This document shows, in pieces, positions 2,183 to 63,985 of a DNA stretch of 64,000 bases (position 1 is its first letter; every line of letters begins with the position of its first letter). A program made the position numbers and the translations under genes. This stretch comes from Eledone cirrhosa. Lineage: Eukaryota. The notes under the pieces are model-generated. The model saw only the letters and a program-made list of their open reading frames with translations. It had not been told where the DNA came from and ran no database searches. The stretch is taken from positions 189,782,001 through 189,846,000 of the forward strand of contig OZ024742.1 in the NCBI GenBank assembly GCA_964016885.1, given 5' to 3'.

Positions 2183-2760
2183 ATATAAATGAATTAATGA
2201 TAGGGATAAACACTGATACAAGTATACATGTGTTTGCATTGCCAATGACCAAGTTAGCTAGATTGAAAAATACTAATTAAAATAATACGGTTTGCCTGTC
2301 TCGATTTAAAATATTAAATCAATAAAAACAAACCTATATTGGCAATAGCCATGATACCTGGACAAATTTTTAATTTTAAATTTTAAATTTGTTTCGCAAC
2401 AATTAAGTGAAATTTCATATTCCTGTGCTCTTCTGCAGGTATCCAGAAATTGGTAAGATTCACTTCAAAATACTTAAGAAGACTGAGTGAAATGTGTTGT
2501 TGAACGCACATGTGTCGCAGTGTCTAGCACGTCCTATACTCGTGTCGCTAAAAATAGTAGTCGGTTTTATGGGACTAAAAATTAGCTCAACGCCTGGAGC
2601 CTTTTTTCAATCTAGCTAACTTGGTCATTTGCAATGTAAACACATGTATACTTGTATCAGTGTTTATCCCAATCATATATTCATTTGTATTACACGGCTC
2701 AGAAATATTCCTTTCTTTGAGCTATTTAATTGTAAACGACTATTTGAGTTTATAACTCTA
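2183..2760. repeat. Fold-back element: ~88-bp arms (2183-2270 / 2603-2690), ~330-bp spacer, right-hand tail
   Basis: GGGATAAACACTGATACAAGTATACATGTGTTT...GACCAAGTTAGCTAGATTGAAAAA recurs in reverse complement; TA-rich tracts on both sides. Confidence 0.85.
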
Positions 2761-2840
2761 TATATAATATGTGTGTATATATATGTATATATATTTTTAC
2801 ATATATATTTATACAAATATATATATATATATATATAGAT

Positions 2841-3260
2841 GGAGGCACGTGGCTTAGTGGTTAGAGCATAGGCCTTGCAATCAAAAAGAACTCTAGAGCA
2901 AATATTTATTAAAATAACAGATTAAAGTTTAAGCAAAGAATCGCTGCTTTCGCCCTTAACAGGATCTTCTGAAGATCCCGTTAAGAGTGAAAGCAGCAAT
3001 TCTTTGCTTAATCTGTTATTCTAATAAATATATATATTGCTCCAGTTTACTCAGCTGTAGAAATGAGATGATAGGGACTGGGGTCCATATCATTCCACTG
3101 CAAAGTGGTCATGGAGGTGCCACGGCACAAAAGCACCCAGCACTCACTGTAAATGAGGTTGGTGTTAGGAAGAGCATCTAGCTGTAGAAATCAAGCCACA
3201 ATCAGTTCCCGTCCCACCCTTGCAAGCAGGGAAAAGCGGACGTAAAATGATGATGATGAT
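2841..3260 (+). mobile_element. tRNA-derived SINE (family A) interrupted by a palindromic element
   Basis: Head GGAGGCACGTGGCTTAGTGGTTAGAGC at 2841; body resumes at ~3036 (ATTGCTCCAGTTTACTCAGCTG); RTE-type tail and (GAT)n; collinear with 3913-4248. Confidence 0.85.
2902..3031. repeat. Spacerless palindrome centred at 2970 with a partial hammerhead-like core; family also at 14834, 17795, 48388, 49206
   Basis: ...GCTGCTTTCGCCCTTAACAGGATCTTC-T-GAAGATCCCGTTAAGAGTGAAAGCAGC... Confidence 0.85.
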
Positions 3261-3432
3261 ATATATATATATGGTATTGGTGCTCTCAAATAGTGATGTA
3301 TACATGAATGTATGTATAGTATATTTGGCAATATACTGTATGTTTAATTAAAAACATTTAGAAGACCATTCGCTATTAGTTTTAAAGAAGTGACTATGTC
3401 ACTTATTTATATTTTCAGCAAAAGCTGGGAGA

Positions 3433-3477
3433 GTGGCTGACAGCTGTTTCTCGCTGCTTGGCGTTTATCAAAACCAC
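3433..3477 (-). ncRNA. Type-I hammerhead ribozyme motif (U3-A8 variant)
   Basis: Reverse complement: GTGGTT-TTGATAA-ACGC-CAAGCA-GCGA-GAAA-CAGCTG-TC-AGCCAC. Confidence 0.8.
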
Positions 3478-6812: not shown

Positions 6813-7148
<336 letters not shown>

Positions 7149-7155
7149 CTTGTCT

Positions 7156-10100
7156 CATCATCATCATCATCATCATCATTTTATGTCCGCTTTTCCCTGC
7201 TTGCAAGGGTGGGACGGGTCTTATTCAGCACAGCATCTCTCCACTCATCACGGTCCTTCGTCATCTCCATCGTGAGCTTCAATGATCTGAGGTCTGTTCT
7301 CACCACCTCCGCCCATGTTTTTCGTGGTCTACCTCTACCACGTCTTCCTTCAACTGGCATTTCCTGGCACTTCTTCACCCATCGGTCATCCTCCATGCGC
7401 ATCACATGTCCATACCACCTCAGTCTCTTCTCCTGTACACTGCATTCTATCCCTCTCAGACACAGTTTCTCTCTCAACACATTTATGCTGGGTCGTTCGT
7501 GCATATTTACACTGCACATCCAACGGAGCATGCTTGCCTCATTTCTCTCCAGCCGTCGTATATCCTCTGCAGTTGCTGCCCATGTCTCACTACCATGCAG
7601 CATCGTGCTCCTCACACAGGCATCATACAACCGGCCTTCCGTACGCAGGGAGAAACCCTTCTTTGTCAACAGAGGAAGCAGCTCCCTAAACTTCTACCAA
7701 CCCGTCCTTATTCTAGATACTATGGCCTCGGAACACCCTCCTCCCATGCTAATCTGATCTCCTAGGTACCGGAAGCTATCCACCACTTCTATAGCGCCCT
7801 CCTGCATCTGAAAAATGTGTCTATCAATGCGACTTCTACTGTCTAATTTCCCTGTACATCTACTGCATACATATTTCTCCCTACCTGTTAGTTTGCCTGC
7901 TATCCCGCTACATCTCTTGTGTACCCAGGGTCTGCATTGTGTGCATTTTATAGAATTTATGCCAGTTCCTTTTCTGCATATCGAACATGGCCATTTCCCT
8001 GGCAGAATCAGGGTTTTGTCCTCTTTTCTACTCATCAACACTTTTGTCTTAGCTAGGTTCACTCTCAGTCCTCTTGCTTCCAACTGCTGTTTCCATAGCC
8101 AGAATTTATTCTCTAGCTCCTCTGCTGATTCTGCTATAAGAACCAGATCGTCAGCATAGAGAAGTTCCCATGGACAGCCAGTCTTAAACTCCTCTGTTAT
8201 GGCTTGGAGGACTATAATGAACAAGAGCGGGCTGAGGACTGAACCTTGATGTACTCCTACTTGTATCTGGAATTCCTCACTAAACTCCATTCCTACCCTG
8301 ACTTTACTGAGAGTACCTCTGTACAAAGTTTGCACTGTCCTCACAAGCCATTCCTCAACACCTAGCTTCCTTAGGGACCACCAGATGACAAATCAGGGTA
8401 CCCTATCAAAGGCCTTCTCTAGTTCAACAAAGGCTAAGTATAGTGGCTTATTTTTCTCTAAGAACCTCTCTTGCAATTGTCTCCCCAAGAAGAGGACGTC
8501 TGTTGTACTCTTCCCAGGCACAAAACCAAACTGCATCTCATCTAGTTTGACCCTTTCTCTAATTAGTTGTGCTAATATCCTTTCTGCCACTTTCATAACC
8601 TGATCCATCAGTTTTATACCCCTATAATTGGTCCTCTCCAGAGCATCCCCTTTACCTTTGTAGCAATTTATGAGAATACTGCTGCACCAGTCTTTGGGTA
8701 TGACACCACCATATATAGCCTGATTGATGATGCGTGCAACCAGTTTAGTGCCTACGTCCCCTGATGCCTTCAGCATCTCAGCAACTATTCCCGATGGTCC
8801 AGCAGCCTTATCTTTTTCATTTCCCTAATCGCCTCTTGGACCTTATATTCGTCAATCTCAATAGCTGGTCCCTCTGTCGGATCTACTAAGGGTAATTTCT
8901 CTCTCTCCCATTCGTTCTCCACATTCATCAGTCTCTCATAATGACATTTCCAGGCCTCCTTTTTCTGATCCTTCGTGACACTAAGTACACCGGCATCATC
9001 CCGGACACATTTATCTCCAACAACATCCTGATTTGTATTGACACACTGCCTTGCAATGTGGAACACCGCACGCCTCTGATCTTCCCGTCGCAGAACATTG
9101 GCAAACCTCCTACTCTCCGCCTCCTTGCATGCTAAGTACACCTGACGTCTAGCTTCTCTCTTAGTGGTTGTATATTCCTCCCTGCTCCCACCCTTTTTCC
9201 AAGCCTTCCATGCTAGTCTCTTGTCTCTACTGGCCTTATCTACTGTGCTGTTCCACCACCAGGTCACTCTCTGTCTGGTTGGAGCTCTGCTCCAGCCACA
9301 AGTTTCATCAGTAGCCTGCAGCAAGTTGTCACGTAAGAAATTCCAGTTATTATCTATGTCATACATCTCTCAATCGACTTCTTTTTCGTCATATACAGCT
9401 TGAAGGGCTTTCCTAAATTTGTATTTTAGTGAAAGGTCTTTTAGCTTCCAGACCTTTCTTCTCCACACCTTCCTGTATGTTTCATTCCATCTCTTGCTTA
9501 CTGAGATATCGCTAACGACTAACCTATGCTGTGGGGGTACATTCTTCCCCAGGGTATGCCTTGGTATTAGACACTATCTGCCTGTCCTGCTGCCTAACTA
9601 ATAAGAAGTCAATCTGGCTTATGTGCTCACCAGATTTGTAGGTTATTAGGTGATTGGCAGGTTTCTGGAAGTTTGTGTTGCAAATAGTCAATGTACCATC
9701 ATCACAAAATTCAAGAAGTCTCACTCCTTCTTCATTTCTTGAGCCGTAACCGTGCCCACCATGTACCCCAGTGTAACCATCCTGGAGCTGTCCAACATGA
9801 CCATTGAAGTCCCCTGCTAGCATAACGATGTCTCCGTCCTGTGTCATTGCAGTTGTTTGTAAAAGTTGCTCATAAAAGCAGTCTTTCTCATTTTTGCCTA
9901 GGCCTGCTTGGGGAGCATAGGCTGAGATGATTGTCAGTAGTCTCCTGCCTACAACTAATCTAAGCTTAATTATTCGATTACTAACTCGAACTACCTCTAT
10001 TGTCTTATTGATCCATTTCTCAGCCAGGAAAATGGCTACTCCCCCTAACCCATCATCCTTACCTACCCAGAATAGCTTATAGCTTATAGCTAAGACGTTT

Positions 10101-10430
10101 GCCTACGACTAGTCTCGCAGAGGCACCTCTCCATCTCACCTCTTGCATGCAGCACACATCCACATGCTTTCTCTCCAGCATCTCCGCTATTTCAGCAGAT
10201 CTACCTCTGAGAGTGCCAACATTAAGTGTTGCAACTCTGAGATGCGACGTCTTCATATTTTGTTGTTCTTATTTGTTGCTGTGCTGATAAGCGTTTTGGC
10301 ATTGATACACTGGTTGGATGCCCTTCCTAACACTAGCGCCACTTTACAGCATGGACTGGGTGCTTTTATTTGTGCCACCAGCACTAGAGAGGATGTCTTA
10401 CTAGACTCAAGGGCCCTCTCTACCCCTCCA
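7156..10430 (-). mobile_element. Near-full-length RTE-clade LINE (family 1), degenerate
   Basis: Single APE endonuclease + RT reading frame in pieces; (GAT)n tail at 7156-7179; 5' UTR with GTTAGGAAGGGCATCC motif at ~10316-10331. Confidence 0.95.
7181..10256 (-). pseudogene. RTE APE endonuclease-reverse transcriptase ORF with several frameshifts/stops
   Basis: MKTSHLRVATLNVGTLRGRS (start), LAGDFNGHVG, SQIDF, NYRGIKL, QFGF, EKAFDRVP, GVHQGSVLSPLLF, LLYADDL, LRWYGHVMR, GRGRPRKTW. Confidence 0.95.
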
Positions 10431-15829: not shown

Positions 15830-16340
15830 TTATCATCCTTTAACATTCATTTTTCTACACTAGTATGGGTTAGATGAGTAGATGAGTTGTCCCATTGTGA
15901 GGCATGTCATATCAGATAACTGTATCTTGCTCTTACAGAACTACTTCTGGTTTGGTTTCTATGACTGGATGTCCTTCTTAATGCCAACTACATTTACAGT
16001 GTGGACTCGGTGCTTTTTATCATGGCACCAACACAACCACTTTACAGTGTGGACTGGAAACTTTTCGTCATGTCACCAATATGACCACCTTATAGGGCAG
16101 ATTTGGTGCTTATTTGTCATGCCACCAGCACACCCACCCTGCAAAGATACCTGAGTGCTCTTTGGTTATGTTTCCTTATAGGGAGAACTAGATGCTCTTT
16201 TGTCATGGTACCAACATGAGCACCTTATGGTGAATAGGGGCCTTTGTTGTGCCACCAATATGACGACCTTTCAGGATGGACTGAGAGCTTTTAGCCATTT
16301 CAGCAGCATTGTTGAGAGCATGTTCAGCTTTCCATGCTTG
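15830..16340 (-). mobile_element. RTE-related non-autonomous element with an internal ~48-bp tandem array
   Basis: RTE tail (TTTAACATTCATTTTTCTACACTAGTATGGGTTAGA), GGATGTCCTTCTTAATGCC motif, then about 6-7 diverged ACCACTTTACAGTGTGGACTGG...GTCATG.CACCA units. Confidence 0.7.
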
Positions 16341-16710
16341 TATTCATGAGTTAGTCAAGAGCTGTGCATCAGATGTGGAAAGAGGGGTAGGATAGGGGTG
16401 TATGTAGGGTGGAGATTGGCAATTTTGGCCTAGGGTGGGGTTGGGGTGGGATGGCGTTGGGTGGTGTAAGTAGGGTGTGGATTGGTGAGGTAGATCTAGG
16501 GTGGGGTACTTAGCTGGTGAAGGGTAGAGTATTAAAACATGGGAGGCATATGGAAGGGGGAGAAGTGGTGCATACTAGTGCATACTAGAGGCCACTAGAT
16601 TTTATTTCCTCCCATGCACATGGGAAGGTAGGTCTTTAGTAGTTCTAGTCCTGTAGAAGCCATTTCTATATTAAATTTGATACATATATAAATAAATATG
16701 TATATATATA

Positions 16711-17788
16711 TAAGAACATAGATTTTACATGTGGCCGGTGTTCTGGGACAATAAGTAGCAGCAAGTGCCCACAAAATACTAGCTCTTTCAACTGCGCAGA
16801 GGGTTCTATAGAAATAGTGGACAGCTTCCGTTACCTGGGTGACAAAATCAGCAGTGGGGGAGGGTGCTCTGAAAGTACAGTAGCTAGAGTCAGAACTGGG
16901 TGGAAAAAGTTCAGAGAGCTTATACCACTATTAGCCGCTAAAGGGTTCTCCCTAAAAATGAAAGGCAGGCTGTACGATGCCTGCATACGAACAGCAATGT
17001 TGCACGGCAGTGAGACCTGGGCATTGTGTGCAGAGGATATACGCAGACTAGAGAGGAACGAAGCTTGCATGCTCCGCTGGATGTGTAATAGTAATATACG
17101 TGAACGACAAAGCATAAACGAACTAAGGAAAAAATTAGAAATAAGAGGGATCAGATGTTGTTTACTAGACAGAAGGCTACGTTGGTATGGTCATGTGATG
17201 CGCATGAAGGACGATAGCTGTATAACAAAGTGCAGGGCAATAAAGATAGACGGTAGCCACGGAATAGGCAGACCCAGAAAAACCTGGGACGAGCTGATAA
17301 ACTCCGACCTCACACACTTACACCTCACCAAGACAATGTCACTGGACCGAGACCTTGGGCGGTACTCAGTAATAGAGAAGACCCGCCTTACCTAAATACA
17401 AAGTAAAACCTACTACAGTCAGTAGGCATCTCTAACAAAATACACCCCGTCCCACCACCCCCACCCCATCCACACCGCCCCCTTCTATGTAAAGTTATGT
17501 CGGTGCCACACCATCCAGGCCGAAACAAATGAGATTGTGTAGGTGTCACGACAAAAAAACACACAGTCCACGCTGTAATGTGGCCGTGTAGGCAACACGG
17601 TAAAAACCTCCCAGACCCACACTGTAAATGTAGTTGGTGTTAGGAAGGGCATCCAACTGTAGAAAACCTGCCAGACAGTCCTATGCGAGCAAGACAATCA
17701 CTCTTGCCTCAAGTGGGAAAACCCCTGTCCAAACCCATGCAAGCGTGGAACACGGACGTTAAACGTTGATGATGATGATGATGATGAT
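16711..17788 (+). mobile_element. 5'-truncated RTE LINE (family 2); ORF C-terminus 16817-17395
   Basis: DSFRYLGD..., LHGSETW, LRWYGHVMR, GRPRKTW; highly similar to 36954-38025; (GAT)n tail. Confidence 0.95.
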
Positions 17789-36953: not shown

Positions 36954-39900
36954 CATCATCATCATCATCATCATCGTTTAACCTCCATCTTCCCCACTAG
37001 CATGGGTGTGGACGGGAATTTTCCCACTTGAGGCAACATTGGTTGTCTTGCTCAGGACTGTCTGGCGATTTTTCTACGGCTGGATGCCCTTCCTAACACC
37101 AACCACGTTTACAGTGTGGACTGGGAGGTTTTTATCGTGTTACCTACACGGCCACATTACATCATGGACTGTGTGTTTTTTTGTCATGACACCTACACGA
37201 CCTCATTTATTTAGGACTGGATGTTGTGGTACCAACATAACTTTACATCGAAAGGGGTGGTGTGGATGGGGTGGGGGTAGTGGGACGGGGGTGTATTTTG
37301 GTAAGAGGTGCCTACTGACTGTAGGTTTTGCTTTGCACTTAGGCAAGGCGGGTCTTCTGTATTACTGAGTACCACCAAAGATCTTGGTCCAGTGACATTG
37401 TCTTGGAGAGGTGTAAGTGTGTGAGGTCGGAATTTATGAAGTCATCCCAGTTTTTTCTGGGTCTGCCTACTCCGTGGCTACCGTCTATTTTGATCGCCAT
37501 GCACTTTTTTATACAGCTGTCGTCTTTCATGCGCATCACATGACCATACCAACGAAGTCTTCTCTCGAGTAAACAGCATCTGATCCCTCTTATTCCTAAT
37601 TTCTCACTTAGTTCATTTATGCTTTGCCGTTCACGTATATTACTATTACACATCCAACGGAGCATGCAAGCTTCATTCCTCTCCAGTCTGTGTAGATCCT
37701 CTACACACAATGCCCAAGTCTCACTGCCATGTAACCTTGCTGTTCGTATGCAGGCATCATACAGCCTGCTTTTCATTTTTAGAGAGAAACCTTTAGCGGC
37801 CAATAGTGGTATAAACTCTCTGAACTTTTTCCATCCCGTTCTGACTCTAGCTACTGTACTTTCAGAGCACCCTCCACCACTGCTGATTTTGTCACCCAGG
37901 TAACAGAAGGTGTCCACTATTTCTATAGAACCATCTGTGCAATGGAATGAGCTAGTATTCTGTGGGCACTTGCTGCTACTTATTGCACCTGAGCACCGGC
38001 CACATATAAAAGCTATGTTCTTAGTTAGCTTACCTGTGATCCCACTACATCTTTTATGCACCCTTACTTTGCATTTGGGACATAAAATGGAGTTTCTCCC
38101 TACTCTTTTCCTACACACTGAGCATGGCCATTTCCCAGATGGGACCAGTGCCCTATTTTCCTTCCTACATACTAGAACTTTAGTCTTAGACAGGTTAATT
38201 TTAAGGCCTTTTGATTCTAGGCCATGCTTTCATGTTTGGAATTTCTTCTTTAGTTCAGCCATTGATTCAGCTATAAGCATTAGATCATCAGCGTATAGGA
38301 GTTCCCATGAGCAGCCGGTCTGGAACTCCTCTGTTATAGCCTGAAGGGCAATAATAAATAGGAGGGGGATAAGTACGGAGCCCTGATGAACACCAACTTT
38401 TACGCTAAGCTCTTCACTATATTTGTTGTTAATTCTAACCTTGCTGACTGTTTCTTTATACATGGCTTGTATAGCTCTCACAAGCCATTCATCAACACCT
38501 AGTTTTCTGAGAGCCCACCAGATAATGGGGTGTGGGACTCTGTCAAAAGCTTTCTCCAAGTCAACAAAAACTAAGTATAGGGGTTTACTTTTAGCTAGGT
38601 ACTTCTCCTGTAGTTGTCGTACAATGAAAAGAGCGTCTGTGGTACTTTTTCCTGACACAAACCCAAACTGCATTTCATCCAGATCAATTCGCTCTCTGAT
38701 TAGTTGCACTATTACTTTTTCTGTGACCTTCATGACCTTGTCAATTAATGTAATGCCTCTATAGTTTCCCCTATCTAGGGCATCTCCTTTACCCTTGTAG
38801 CAGTTAATGATGATGCTGCTATGCCAGTCCTTCGGTACGACCCCATTCTGTATGACTTGGTTTACTATCTGGGTGACCATAGTGTGTCCCACCGTTCCAG
38901 ATGCTTTCAGCATTTCAGCAACTATTTCCGAAGGCCCAGCTGCCTTGCCCGTCTTCATATCTTTGATTGCCTTACTTATTATACTACCTTCAACTTGCAC
39001 TGCTGGTCCCTCTATTGGATCGATGTGGGGGAGACTGTCTTTCTCCCATTTATTCTCCTCATTTAGTAGCCTTTCGTAGTGACACTTCCAAGCTACCTTC
39101 TTATCAGCGTCAGTGATGGCAAGTACACCATCATCATTAAGGACACACTTCTCCCCGACAATATCACAGTTTTCCTTGACATATTGCCTAGCAATCCTGA
39201 ACACCTCACGTTTTTGGTCCTCACGTTGTAGAACATGCTTGAACTTTCTTTCCTCTGCTTCCCTTCTTGCGAAGTACACTTGTCTCCTAGCTTCCCTCCT
39301 GGCCACTTGATAGTCTTCTCTACTTCCCCCATCCCGCCATACTTTCCAAGCCTGCTTTTTGGCTTTGATTGACTCTTCCACCTTACTGTTCCACCACCAC
39401 GTTACTCTCCTCCTGCCTATAGGTCTGCTCCAGCCACAGATTTCATCTGTCGCCTTCAGCAGGTTAGCTTTCAGGAATTCCCACTGTTCCACTATATTGT
39501 ACGACTCTAATTGCTCTTCCTTACTGTCAAAAGCATCATGTAATATGCTTTTAAATTTATTACTGGCTGTGGGGTCCTTTAACTTCCATATTTTTCTCCT
39601 GAGGATAGTCCTCCTCTGTTGTCGAGTATGTCTAGTCCTGACTACGAGATCGCTAACTTTGAGTCTATGTTGAGAGGTGCATTCTTCATGGGGGAGGGAT
39701 TTAGTGTTTACAACAGACACTCTGTCACGTCTTCTGGTAAGGATATAATCTATCTGACTGGTGTGTTCCCCTGATCTATAGGTGATCAAGTGATTGTCTC
39801 ATTTTTTGAAGTTAGTGTTACAGATAGTTAGGTTATTTGCGTCACAGAATTCCAGGATTCTGGAGCCTTCCTCATTTCTAGTACCAAACCCATAGCCTCC

Positions 39901-45430: not shown

Positions 45431-45712
45431 CATCATCATCATCATCATCATCATCATCACTGTTTTACGTCCGTTCTTCCACGCTAGCATTGGTTAGACG
45501 GGTAGTCCTGTTGTGGGCAGTGTCTGGTCGGCTGACCATGCCTTGCTCATACAGGAACTGATTTGGCTTGATTTCTACAGCTGGATGCCCTTCCTAACAC
45601 CAACCTCATTTACAGTGAGTGCTGGGTGCTTTTTCGTGGCACCTACACGTCCACTTTCCAGTGTGGGCTGGGTGCTTTTTTGCCGTGGCACCTCCACGAC
45701 CACCTTGCAGTG
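45431..45712 (-). mobile_element. RTE-tailed SINE/non-autonomous element
   Basis: (CAT)n, then reverse complement of 671-803 plus GGATGCCCTTCCTAACACC. Confidence 0.85.
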
Positions 45713-59023: not shown

Positions 59024-59388
59024 ACATACATACATACATACATACATACATACATACATACATACATACATACATACATACATACACCCACATGCATGCA
59101 TACATATATACTGGGTTCTGATGTAGTGATATTAATAGCTCTCAAAAAAGGAAGAACTCAATGTTTATAATAGAGTAATTATATAGGTTGATTTTTATTT
59201 ATATTTTCTTACATATGTATGCTATAATGGACTTTATGAAATAACATCATCATTATCCACTTCTCCATAGCCAATTAATATTCTATATTTGTTCTAATCA
59301 AAACTGAATTTTAGTTGAACCCTCAACCTCATTGTTCCTGCTTGTTCTACAGTATACATATTAAGAAAAACATACATATATACATATA

Positions 59389-59603
59389 TAAGTATAAAGG
59401 AAGTGGTCAAGTGCAGAAATGCTATTAATATAAGTTATAAAATAGAGTAAGACCCTTATAAAATGAAAAAAGAAGTTGCCATCGGCCGCTATGAAAGAAT
59501 GGACCTTGATGCCAACATTTTTTCCTTTTTTTTAAGGCACTTCACCCTATTCTATAAGCTATCTTTATAGCATTTCTGCACTACAGCACTTTCTTTATAC
59601 TTA
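59389..59603. repeat. Fold-back element, same family as 104-277
   Basis: TAAGTATAAAGGAAGTGGTCAAGTGCAGAAAT... / ...ATTTCTGCACTACAGCACTTTCTTTATACTTA. Confidence 0.85.
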
Positions 59604-60309
59604 CATATATATATTCTCAGTGCTTAAAAGCTGTAAATTCGGTTGTGTATATTGTTTATATATACATATATATCTTTAAGTCGTTTGGAAGCCTCGACAA
59701 TGCAAATGGGTAAATCTCCGGGTAACAAGATCCGGTGGTGGAGAGAGAGATGTAAGTGAGTGTACGTTGAGATGCGTGGCGTGTATAAGACGTGTAGAGG
59801 AATGAAGGAAAGAGTATAAAGGATAAAATAAAAATAACAACACGAGAGAGAGTTACCTTGGGAGAGATTTAATTGTCCCTATATATTTTGGATTCACATC
59901 CATCAACTGGGGGTTTTTTCCGGGGTGGGGGAAAGGTTGTCTGTCGGAAAGGTGCAAAACGTGTCCTCCGATGTTTGTTGTTTTGAATATCTGAGGTATT
60001 CAGCAGAGCGCGTGCGCATAAAATGGGGTCGGTCGGGCAGAGGTCAGCGGCCGAAGTAGTTCTTTCAATTGTGGGAGTGGGGTGGCGCTAGCTGTCAGTC
60101 CATTCTCTGCTTGTTTGTTAAATGTTACTGTGTGTGTGTGTGCGTGTGTTGTTGTCTCGCTTGAGTGTGTGTGCGTGTGTTGTTGCCTTGTTCCTCTGTA
60201 TTGGCAGTGTAGTATGTTTGTATGGTGGAATGCTACTGTGTGTGTGTGTGCGTGTGTAGTTGTCTCGCTTGTGTGTGTGTGTGCGTGTGTTGTTGCATCG
60301 TTTGTTAAC

Positions 60310-60830
60310 TTAAACCAACCACCTCATTTCGCTTCTCTCGGATTGATTGTTTATTTGCGGTTACAGGAGTTTGATAAAAAGTGCTTCCTTGATACGTAAC
60401 GTGCTGACGTTTCTTTCAGTCGCTAGAATTGTGACAATGGGCCTTCCGTCTTTGTTTCCGCATTTGTCTATGTGTTTCCGGAAAGACGAGGCCCTGGTTT
60501 TAGTGTGTTCCTTATCCGGATGTGCAAAGGTCAGATTGTGCTAGCTATATAATATTGGTTGCACCTGTCACATTCTATCTTATACACGACGTATGTGCGT
60601 AGGCAACAGTTCGCATGGCGTATCGGGTAGTCCCTGAGGGAGCACGCGTCAGTTGATTTCCCGGGTTTCCTGGAGAGGCATCTTCGCAGGGAGGGGCCCG
60701 AGTGGGCCAGGTGGATGTCGAGGGCCTCCCTCCATATAGCCTTGTGGATAGCATTGGTGGTATTCTCGCCCAGGTGTGGCATTTTAAGGAGGTACTTGCT
60801 TTGGGTGCCTCTCTGTCTCTTGTGTCTGGT
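60310..60830 (-). pseudogene. Penelope-type linker + GIY-YIG endonuclease relic (2 stops, 1 frameshift)
   Basis: MPHLGE...GPSLRRCLS...C...VVYKIECDRCNQYYIASTI*PLHIRI/EHTK...SSFRKH...ILATERN...LRIKEALFIKLL*PQIN; the GIY-YIG R, E and N catalytic positions are recognisable. Confidence 0.85.
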
Positions 60831-61294
60831 GTCAACCGCAAATAAAGAATCAATCCTAGAGAAGCGAAATGAGGTGGTTGGTTTAAGTTAGCAATCGATG
60901 CAACAACATACGCACACACACACACAAGCAAGACAACTACACATGCACACGCACACACACACACAGTAGCATTCCACCATACAAACATACTACACTGCCA
61001 ATACAGAGGAACAAGGCAACAACACACGCACACACACACACTCAAGCGAGACAACAACACACGCACACATACACACAGTAACATTTAACAAACAGGCAGA
61101 GAATGGACTGACAGCTAGCGCCACCCCACTCCCACAATTGAAAGAACTACTTCGGCCGCTGACCTCTGCCCGACCGACCCCATTTCACGCGCACGTGCGC
61201 TCTGCTGAATACCTCAGATATTCAAAATAACAAACAGCGGAGGACACGTTTTGCACCTTTCCGACAGACAACCTTTCCCCCACCCCGGAAAAAA

Positions 61295-61330
61295 CCCCAG
61301 TTGATGGATGTGAATCCGAAATATATAGGG
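61295..61330 (+). ncRNA. Hammerhead-like motif with variant core CAGUUGA (mirror copy 59877-59912, - strand)
   Basis: CCC-CAGTTGA-T-GGAT-GTGA-ATCC-GAAA-TATA-TA-GGG. Confidence 0.7.
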
Positions 61331-61766
61331 ACAATTAAATCTCTCCCAAGGTAACTCTCTCTCGTGTTGTTATTTTTATTTTATCCTTTATACTCTTTCC
61401 TTCATTCCTCTACACATCTTATACACGCCACGCATCTCAACGTACACCCACTTACATCTCTCTCTCCACCACCGGATCTTGTTACCCGGAGATTTACCCA
61501 TTTGCATTGTCGAGGCTTCCAAACGACTTAAAGATATTTACCTATTATTCCACAATGCTTCAAGCAAACTTCAATACTCTCCCATACATATATATATATT
61601 TTTTTTTCTTTTCCTTCTCTTCATAACTCTATTACACAAGATAAAGAACTACAATAAACTTAGACTACCCAAGTCACACATTTTGAAATACAATAATTCA
61701 GTTAATAAAAAAAAGGAAATATACTGTTTAATAAAAAAGAACATCGCTGCAACCAAAGTCATATAC

Positions 61767-63651: not shown

Positions 63652-63985
63652 TCCATCATCATCACCATCATTACTGTTTAACGTCCATTTTCCATGCTAA
63701 CATGGGTTAGACGTGCTGTCCCTTTGTGAGACAAGTTAGGTTGGATGACCATGTTTTGCTCATACAGAACAGATTTTGGCTTGATTCCTATGACTAGATG
63801 CCCTTCCTAATGCCAACCACATTTACTGTGTGTACTGGGTACTTTATGTCATGACACCTACACGACCACTTTACAATGTGGGCTGGGTGTTTTTGGTTGT
63901 GACACCTACATGACAACTTTACAGTTTGGACTGGGCGCTTTTTGTCATGCCACCTACACAAGCACTTTACAGTATAGACTGTTCA
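63652..63985 (-). mobile_element. RTE-related non-autonomous element with 48-bp tandem units
   Basis: (CAT)n-like tail; TTTAACGTCCATTTTCCATGCTAACATGGGTTAGAC; GATGCCCTTCCTAATGCC; about 3.5 units of ACCACTTTACA.TGTGG.CTGGG...GACACCTACA. Confidence 0.8.

What the first reader, a model, noticed from the sequence alone, without database searches (positions are those of the whole stretch)
59670..61590. Key element: 1.9-kb fold-back whose spacer is a Penelope GIY-YIG endonuclease
The minus-strand copy runs from ~60830 through the linker and GIY-YIG into a ~640-nt 3' region. The plus-strand copy starts at ~60833 in the last codons (QPQIKN, where the left copy has *PQINN) and alone carries the tail. 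This fixes element polarity, shows that the ribozyme-like motif is on the sense strand, and shows that the palindrome is two differently 5'-truncated cDNAs joined head-to-head. The arms are highly similar and contain internal (CA)n/(TG)n runs, so the element also disperses microsatellites.
Basis: partly seen in the sequence, partly recalled or inferred. Interest (0 to 1): 0.75.

Follow-up and report, generated by a model that had tools for sequence, protein, structure and literature searches.

The report
Head-to-head Penelope retrotransposon insertion
This 1.9-kb hairpin is a broken, two-ended copy of a very common Penelope-type jumping gene, a layout already known for these elements; its sister copies carry the short end 'tail' on exactly one side, likely because both DNA strands are primed at two fixed start points, and the family's hammerhead RNA motif has core changes predicted to stop it cutting.

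Summary
Two copies of a Penelope-like retrotransposon end join head to head at 60833: arms are 97.5% alike, the 467-base spacer is the element's linker and GIY-YIG endonuclease (here broken by two stops and a frameshift), and only the right copy has the 44-base tail. The family has thousands of copies in this genome; siblings carry RT plus GIY-YIG. Inverted truncated copy plus one-sided tail is textbook for these elements, and the scan found it before on other DNA. New here: (1) 31 of 31 resolved head-to-head insertions, chosen without regard to the tail, have exactly one tail, on either arm; partner arms share rare variants, so both likely come from one template. (2) The sense-strand hammerhead-like motif keeps the layout of relatives' hammerheads but has CAGUUGA for CUGANGA family-wide (98 of 100 listed, no canonical copy), predicted inactive. 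(3) The '3' region' also holds the next unit's 5' end: the start codon lies in the tail. The microsatellite-dispersal claim is weak; the strong pattern is insertion into (TA)n. Raw long reads across this junction were not available. New member of a known kind.

The parts
59670..60833 (-). Longer 5'-truncated copy of the Penelope-like element; ends without the tail
60833..61581 (+). Shorter 5'-truncated copy, inverted; ends with the tail
60310..60833 (-). C-terminal 174 codons of the ORF: linker with C-x4-C-x6-C and GIY-YIG endonuclease; broken by a stop at 60533-60531, a one-base deletion near 60513, a stop at 60363-60361, and YIG read as YIA
   Evidence: (family reads have one more base at 60513)
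60366..60832 (-). Unpaired spacer of the fold-back (part of the longer copy only)
60833..60833 (.). Head-to-head junction, one base shared by both copies
60906..61077 (+). CA-rich imperfect repeats of the 3' untranslated part (mirror in the minus copy at about 60121-60290)
61217..61219 (+). Family hot spot of 5' ends; likely the start of the element's RNA (inferred)
   Evidence: 12 of 66 mapped 5' ends fall here
61295..61330 (+). Hammerhead-like motif: 3-bp stem I, core CAGUUGA, one extra base, 4-bp stem II, GAAA, palindromic UAUA, UA, predicted cut before 61328; non-canonical A4 and U6
59877..59912 (-). Same motif in the minus copy, with G12 changed to A at 59889 (ends placed by offset)
61538..61581 (+). 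44-base tail; holds the ORF's likely start codon at 61555 and its first nine codons (MLQANFNTL)
   Evidence: relatives' proteins begin with similar residues
59662..59673 (+). Left copy of a 12-base candidate target-site duplication (last 4 bases shared with the element end); weak, low-complexity
61584..61595 (+). Right copy of the candidate target-site duplication, 2 bases past the tail

Best explanation
This is one dead insertion of a high-copy, endonuclease-bearing Penelope-like retrotransposon, made of two 5'-truncated copies joined head to head, likely formed when the element's protein cut both strands of a TA-rich site and primed reverse transcription from each strand, one at each of two fixed start points on what is likely a single RNA. 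Shown: the anatomy, the family, the (TA)n targets, the one-tail rule and the shared variants of partner arms. Inferred: the start point beyond the tail gave the right arm, the start point before it gave the left arm; the two cDNAs stopped at different places and were joined end to end with one base of overlap; the spacer is what only the longer cDNA reached. The hammerhead-like motif is most likely a relic that no longer cuts (inferred from mutagenesis of another hammerhead), and the family spread without it.
For: [quoted passage not shown] One-tail rule: 16 of 16 head-to-head insertions from the first 100 matches (binomial 1.5e-5), 5 of 5 more in L031-L060, 10 of 10 resolved among 12 fetched's list; two insertions picked as likely both-tail exceptions also have one terminal tail. 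Tail on the shorter arm in 10 of the 16, on the longer in 6. One template: the window arms differ at 15 of 691 bases against at least 2.9% to any of 27 other copies and share two variants seen in none of them; over 24 pairs, shared rare variants run 5.57 per kb against 0.12 for non-partners. Targets: 27 of 29 terminal ends run into (TA)n. In vitro, a lizard Penelope-like protein cuts and extends both strands, starts at two internal sites that bracket the tail, is predicted to dimerise, and does not need hammerhead cleavage (PMC11167929). Hammerhead: 98 of the first 100 of 2459 matches read CAGTTGA, none CTGA, no canonical-core copy in the genome, while relatives at 30-43% protein identity have CTGANGA in the same layout; all single and double mutants of the CUGA turn except the C3-G8 swap had low activity in one type III hammerhead (PMC9901934).
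Against: The genome data do not separate two primings from a fold-back that is trimmed later: shared variants and near-exact palindromic centres (L138, L047, L032) fit both. 16 of the 43 shared rare variants come from one locus and 12 of 24 pairs share none; gene conversion between arms was not excluded. The candidate duplication is a 12-mer found 77 times in the window. Two of the 31 tails are incomplete (46 and 50 of 53 reference bases; L068, L044). The sample is the first 142 Mb of one chromosome. Nine of 66 5' ends lie within -19 to +6 of the predicted cut, though none exactly on it, and part of that sample was chosen for holding the whole motif. In vitro the lizard protein showed no strand difference in start site, so the coupling itself is not shown there.
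Confidence: 0.62

Rival explanations
1. One cDNA is made from the RNA, folds back and copies itself into a hairpin, and the endonuclease then trims the tail from one arm as it resolves the intermediate into the target.
For: Explains shared variants and centres where both arms end at nearly the same base inside the ORF (L138 at 2616/2616). PMC8557442 says the tail most likely results from endonuclease-mediated resolution; PMC3846280 reads junction palindromes as self-priming, possibly on an antisense template.
Against: Needs an extra, unobserved trimming step whenever the longer arm lacks the tail (10 of 16). Two RT start sites bracketing the tail and extension of both strands were seen directly in vitro. 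Several junctions carry extra or non-adjacent bases, more like end joining.
Confidence: 0.25
2. Two independent insertions (or a later duplication) landed back to back and were homogenised by gene conversion.
For: The family is abundant and favours TA runs, including those beside older copies; some loci are complex (L137, L141, L029).
Against: Among the first 100 matches, close opposite-strand neighbours are all head to head, none tail to tail; junctions join element to element with no target DNA between; independent events would not give one tail in 31 of 31.
Confidence: 0.05
3. The hammerhead-like motif is an active, protein-assisted variant whose A4/U6 core is tolerated, and it processes the element's RNA.
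For: All other core features are kept (C3-G8, G5, A9, extra base, G10.1-C11.1, GAAA, palindromic loop, UH); near-invariant in 80 sampled copies; contigs of two other labelled organisms list no change at 61298-61304; the lizard hammerhead cuts only with protein.
Against: Invariance is expected in a young family and is no sign of selection; changes at A6 lower activity (PMC3088659) and no double mutant rescues the turn; the commonest 5' end lies 111 bases upstream of the predicted cut and 0 of 66 ends fall on it.
Confidence: 0.12
4. The palindrome is an assembly or fold-back read artefact.
For: Inverted repeats of these elements trouble assemblies (PMC8557442); no read set spanning this junction was shown.
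Against: Arms differ by 15 substitutions plus indels and by the tail; the same ordered layout recurs in over 30 loci with different junctions.
Confidence: 0.02

Closest known systems
Inverted-pLTR insertions of endonuclease-bearing Penelope-like elements (PMC8557442 fig. 2 legend and passages; Adineta Pen2a_Av, PMC3846280 passages)
   Same: 5'-truncated copy with an adjacent inverted truncated copy, head to head; tail at one end only; short target duplication; pLTR and tail overlap the ORF start; (TA)n targets.
   Different: Tail is 40-44 bases, slightly over the 30-40 quoted; the papers say 'often' or 'optionally' one end, here it is 31 of 31 and on either arm.
PAc (Poseidon of Anolis carolinensis), PMC11167929, abstract and main text read
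   Same: Single RT + GIY-YIG ORF, AT-rich targets, two end points bracketing a tail near the ORF start, hammerhead-like motif upstream with an AUG opening stem II.
   Different: Here that AUG (61304) opens only a 16-codon frame and the ORF likely starts in the tail; the linker has cysteines, which Penelope/Poseidon lack; the hammerhead core is non-canonical.
Minimal hammerheads of metazoan PLEs (PMC4209133, results and discussion read)
   Same: Short stem I, extra base between 9 and 10.1, G10.1-C11.1, palindromic minimal helix III.
   Different: A4 and U6 in place of U4 and A6; the variants reported in the parts read are U3-A8 and stem changes.
Nematis / Neptune clades (linker cysteine motif; PMC8557442 passages)
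   Same: C-terminal endonuclease with CCHH, LGPKF and DKG motifs, cysteine-bearing linker, (TA)n bias; groups with a Haemonchus protein at SH-aLRT 100 apart from linker-less relatives.
   Different: Linker reads C-x4-C-x6-C, not the full CX2-5CxxC; no named reference sequences were in the tree, so the clade name is tentative and partly recalled.

Membership tests
EN+ Penelope-like elements (C-terminal endonuclease) | One ORF with RT followed by a GIY-YIG endonuclease | tested here: met
   Siblings L003, L020, L081: RVT_1 above cut-off, GIY-YIG at or just under it; window pieces are 87-93% identical to L081. The window copy itself lacks RT and gives no Pfam hit.
EN+ Penelope-like elements (C-terminal endonuclease) | [quoted passage not shown] | tested here: met
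   CDRC between VVY and YI(G/A), KEH and RKH downstream.
EN+ Penelope-like elements (C-terminal endonuclease) | pLTRs in partial tandem or inverted arrangement | tested here: met
   Direct units 3.33 kb apart (L069/L081, L080) and over 30 inverted insertions.
EN+ Penelope-like elements (C-terminal endonuclease) | 30-40 base tail at one end | tested here: met
   40-44 bases, one end in 31 of 31.
EN+ Penelope-like elements (C-terminal endonuclease) | Short target-site duplication | tested here: inconclusive
   12-base match at both ends, but the word occurs 77 times in the window.
EN+ Penelope-like elements (C-terminal endonuclease) | Match to the CDD profile GIY-YIG_PLEs (cd10442) | not testable with these tools
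   No CDD library offered; Pfam and an alignment of relatives were used (that alignment includes a family member).
PLE minimal hammerhead ribozyme | Stems I and II, G10.1-C11.1, GAAA, UH cut site, palindromic helix III | tested here: met
   Plus copy fits the descriptor that also finds six canonical hits in 5 relatives' loci plus L085's family; 0.2 variant hits per shuffled set.
PLE minimal hammerhead ribozyme | CUGANGA catalytic box | tested here: not met
   CAGUUGA in 98 of 100 listed, CGGUUGA in 2; 0 canonical copies; no such box in either strand of the plus copy; no Rfam hammerhead hit.
PLE minimal hammerhead ribozyme | Self-cleavage | not testable with these tools
   Needs an in vitro assay.
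Nematis clade | RT phylogeny with named Nematis references | tested here: inconclusive
   Quick tree of 26 unnamed or loosely named rows (25 of 77 hits plus L081); groups with a nematode protein; long branches flagged.
Nematis / Neptune clades | CX2-5CxxC linker motif | tested here: not met
   C-x4-C-x6-C here and three-cysteine forms in close relatives; the nematode and coral rows keep CxxC. PMC8557442 calls the Nematis linker 'reduced'.
Naiad/Chlamys; Hydra | N-terminal endonuclease (Naiad/Chlamys); loss of CCHH and DKT for DKG (Hydra) | tested here: not met
   Endonuclease is C-terminal, CCHH and SDKG present.

The most novel reading that the evidence does not exclude
The family carries a working hammerhead with a core not found in my searches (A4 and U6 for U4 and A6) that cuts only with the element's protein, and its strict one-tail rule records a protein dimer that primes both target strands from one RNA at two obligately different start sites.
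Probability: 0.1. Interest if true: 0.62.

Novelty: new member of a known kind. Interest (0 to 1): 0.27.

Why it matters
The locus itself is an ordinary dead transposon copy. Its family is useful in two ways. How Penelope-like elements build inverted ends and tails is an open question; a 31-of-31 one-tail count, with the tail on either arm and both arms from one template, is a constraint that the existing in vitro system can test directly (are the start sites on the two strands coupled?). And a family with thousands of copies and a probably dead hammerhead is a natural case for the idea that these ribozymes are dispensable; PMC8557442 calls canonical hammerheads universal outside Naiad/Chlamys, and standard descriptors would miss this motif.

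Tried and rejected
Pfam on the window's three broken pieces: no hit. Rfam at E up to 5: eight matches, all far below their cut-offs, no hammerhead. Apparent exceptions to the one-tail rule (L046, L055, L078, L079) came from internal pLTRs or a 3-base deletion and resolved to one tail; L069 was a direct tandem that I had misread, and was dropped; L132 and L139 have one end cut short and L029, L006, L016 one end unseen, so they are not counted. A spliced start joining the 61304 AUG to the ORF was considered: the only in-frame acceptors read GAG, so I prefer the AUG in the tail (by eye). Hammerhead cleavage as the source of 5' ends: 0 of 66 at the cut, inconclusive. ADAR-type A-to-G scars, a lead from earlier findings: none in 123 arms (highest 5 of 87 A; window arms 2 of 220 and 1 of 216). 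A displaced CUGANGA box, as in permuted hammerheads: none in the pLTR; the one sense-strand match per unit lies inside the RT region. Sequencing runs: no RNA holder listed; reads and contigs laid on the junction show the family but no listed piece spans it. The duplication coordinates printed were mis-indexed and are replaced. The careful tree did not finish; the quick one is cited. The 2026 retrozyme preprint had nothing relevant in the passages seen.

Full report
Observation. The fold-back is real. The minus copy (60833 down to 59670) and the plus copy (60833 up to 61581) align with 688 matches, 18 mismatches and 15 gap columns and share one base at the junction. The 467-base spacer reads, on the minus strand, as a cysteine-bearing linker and a GIY-YIG endonuclease broken by two stops and a one-base deletion. 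Pfam does not recognise the broken pieces; they are 87-93% identical to a sibling frame and align to a profile of 23 relatives that includes that sibling.

Family. The window lies in a 3.0-Gb animal genome rich in (TA)n, probably a cephalopod (my inference from size and repeat content; no call names it). The spacer finds 1770 candidates, of which 40 were scored: the window and 39 copies at 95-96%. A 26-mer near the end has 1915 exact matches and the hammerhead-like motif 2459; these count ends, not insertions. [quoted passage not shown] A protein search gave 77 relatives, best 50-55% identical, most unnamed. A quick tree of 25 of them plus L081 groups the family with a Haemonchus and a coral protein, apart from linker-less rows; with the reduced linker this suggests a Nematis-like clade, a tentative and partly recalled label.

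What the ends are. Family ends fall in two classes, 9-17 or about 53 bases past a fixed anchor. The extra 40-44 bases are the tail; in internal copies it runs on into the ORF, and it holds the likely start codon (61555), whose peptide resembles the N-termini of relatives. So the '3' region' is the 3' untranslated part plus the 5' end of the next unit. 12 of 66 mapped 5' ends sit at 61217-61219, likely the RNA start (inferred; the sample holds some alignment breaks and is partly selected for the motif). 27 of 29 terminal ends run into (TA)n. Internal CA runs are short: 7 units in the window, median 8 in 60 copies, up to 38, so seeding of CA microsatellites is real but small.

One-tail rule. From the first 100 anchor matches I fetched 17 close neighbours; one was a direct tandem, and the other 16 head-to-head insertions each have exactly one terminal tail. 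Five more in L031-L060 and 10 resolved of 12 from an independent list agree: 31 of 31, at most 0.5 to the power 31 if ends were independent (my arithmetic; one search gives 1.5e-5 for the first 16). Two loci picked as likely exceptions, L082, L002, L004 and the window agree as well but are not counted. The tail is on the shorter arm in 10 of 16; there each arm holds sequence that the other lacks.

One template. The window arms are each other's nearest neighbours (15 of 691; at least 2.9% to 27 others) and share two private variants. In 24 of 32 pairs that could be analysed, partners differ at 24.6 per kb against 40.4 for non-partners and share 5.57 rare variants per kb against 0.12; one locus gives 16 of the 43 and 12 pairs give none. 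Gene conversion was not excluded.

Hammerhead-like motif. At 61295-61330 the sense strand has stem I, a seven-base core, an extra base, stem II, GAAA, a palindromic loop and UA, the layout of PLE minimal hammerheads (PMC4209133). The same descriptor finds six canonical hits in 6 of 46 related metagenome loci, one variant hit, and 0.2 variant hits per shuffled set. This family reads CAGUUGA: 98 of 100 listed, 2 CGGUUGA, no canonical copy in the genome. The minus copy also lacks G12. In complete pairwise mutagenesis of one type III hammerhead every single and double change of the CUGA turn except the C3-G8 swap had low activity (PMC9901934); an A6 change lowers activity (PMC3088659). I read the motif as a relic; cutting was not tested. 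Paper searches did not show this core, and 13 and 60 no count of the one-tail rule; the library is partial and supplements were not read.

Mechanism. Best reading (0.62): both strands of a TA-rich site are cut and primed on one RNA, one at each of the two start points that bracket the tail, and the two truncated cDNAs are joined head to head. Both-strand cutting and extension, the two start sites and the dispensability of the hammerhead are shown in vitro for a lizard element (PMC11167929); their coupling is my inference from the count. The main rival (0.25) is fold-back with later trimming, close to proposals in PMC8557442 and PMC3846280. Independent insertions and artefact are unlikely.

Comparison and verdict. 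The inverted truncated copy, one-sided tail and (TA)n bias are described for these elements, and Penelope families are reported as recently active in an octopus genome (PMC13282606). Earlier notes of this scan describe the same layout in other genomes and one-RNA origin in this genome; none matched this family's end by sequence. Papers seen: PMC11167929 and PMC4209133, parts 1-2 of 4; PMC3088659, passages and section 8; PMC8557442, PMC3846280, PMC13282606, PMC9901934 and the 2026 preprint, passages only. Verdict: real, a new member of a known kind, interest 0.27.

Noticed in passing
window 37342-39798 (-) and 7068-10102 (-): Two broken LINE-type copies: RVT_1, endonuclease (Exo_endo_phos_2, under cut-off) and PHD-finger hits; RTE-like is my recalled label.
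   Followed up: partly
window 16649-17392 (+): 248-codon open frame that looks like another piece of the same LINE type by eye; no Pfam hit.
   Followed up: partly
window 15985-16137, 45609-45712, 63816-63981: A dispersed 48-base tandem repeat family, 2-3.4 units at each place.
   Followed up: no
window 59378-59448 and 59544-59614: A separate 71-base inverted repeat (83%) about 55 bases left of the element.
   Followed up: no
window 61304-61354 (+): A 16-codon upstream frame whose AUG is formed by positions 9, extra base and 10.1 of the hammerhead-like motif, followed by a splice-donor-like AG/GTAACT and a 140-base AG-free pyrimidine-rich stretch; possibly a 5' intron.
   Followed up: partly
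L137, L141, L143, L029, L079: Insertions with internal inversions or jumps between ORF segments, still ending in one tail where both ends are seen.
   Followed up: partly
L055, L135, L136, L138, L047, L032: Near-symmetric insertions whose two arms end at almost the same 5' base, three at the 61217 hot spot and one inside the ORF.
   Followed up: partly
L008 (sense 2680-3465), L018 (sense 2936-3415), L025 (sense 2449-3465): Other mobile-element-like frames directly after the family's end: a different RT with YVDD, a mariner-like transposase piece, and an unknown frame (labels by eye).
   Followed up: no
runs X4 and X5: Contigs of two other labelled organisms hold the same family end with no listed change in the motif core.
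   Followed up: partly
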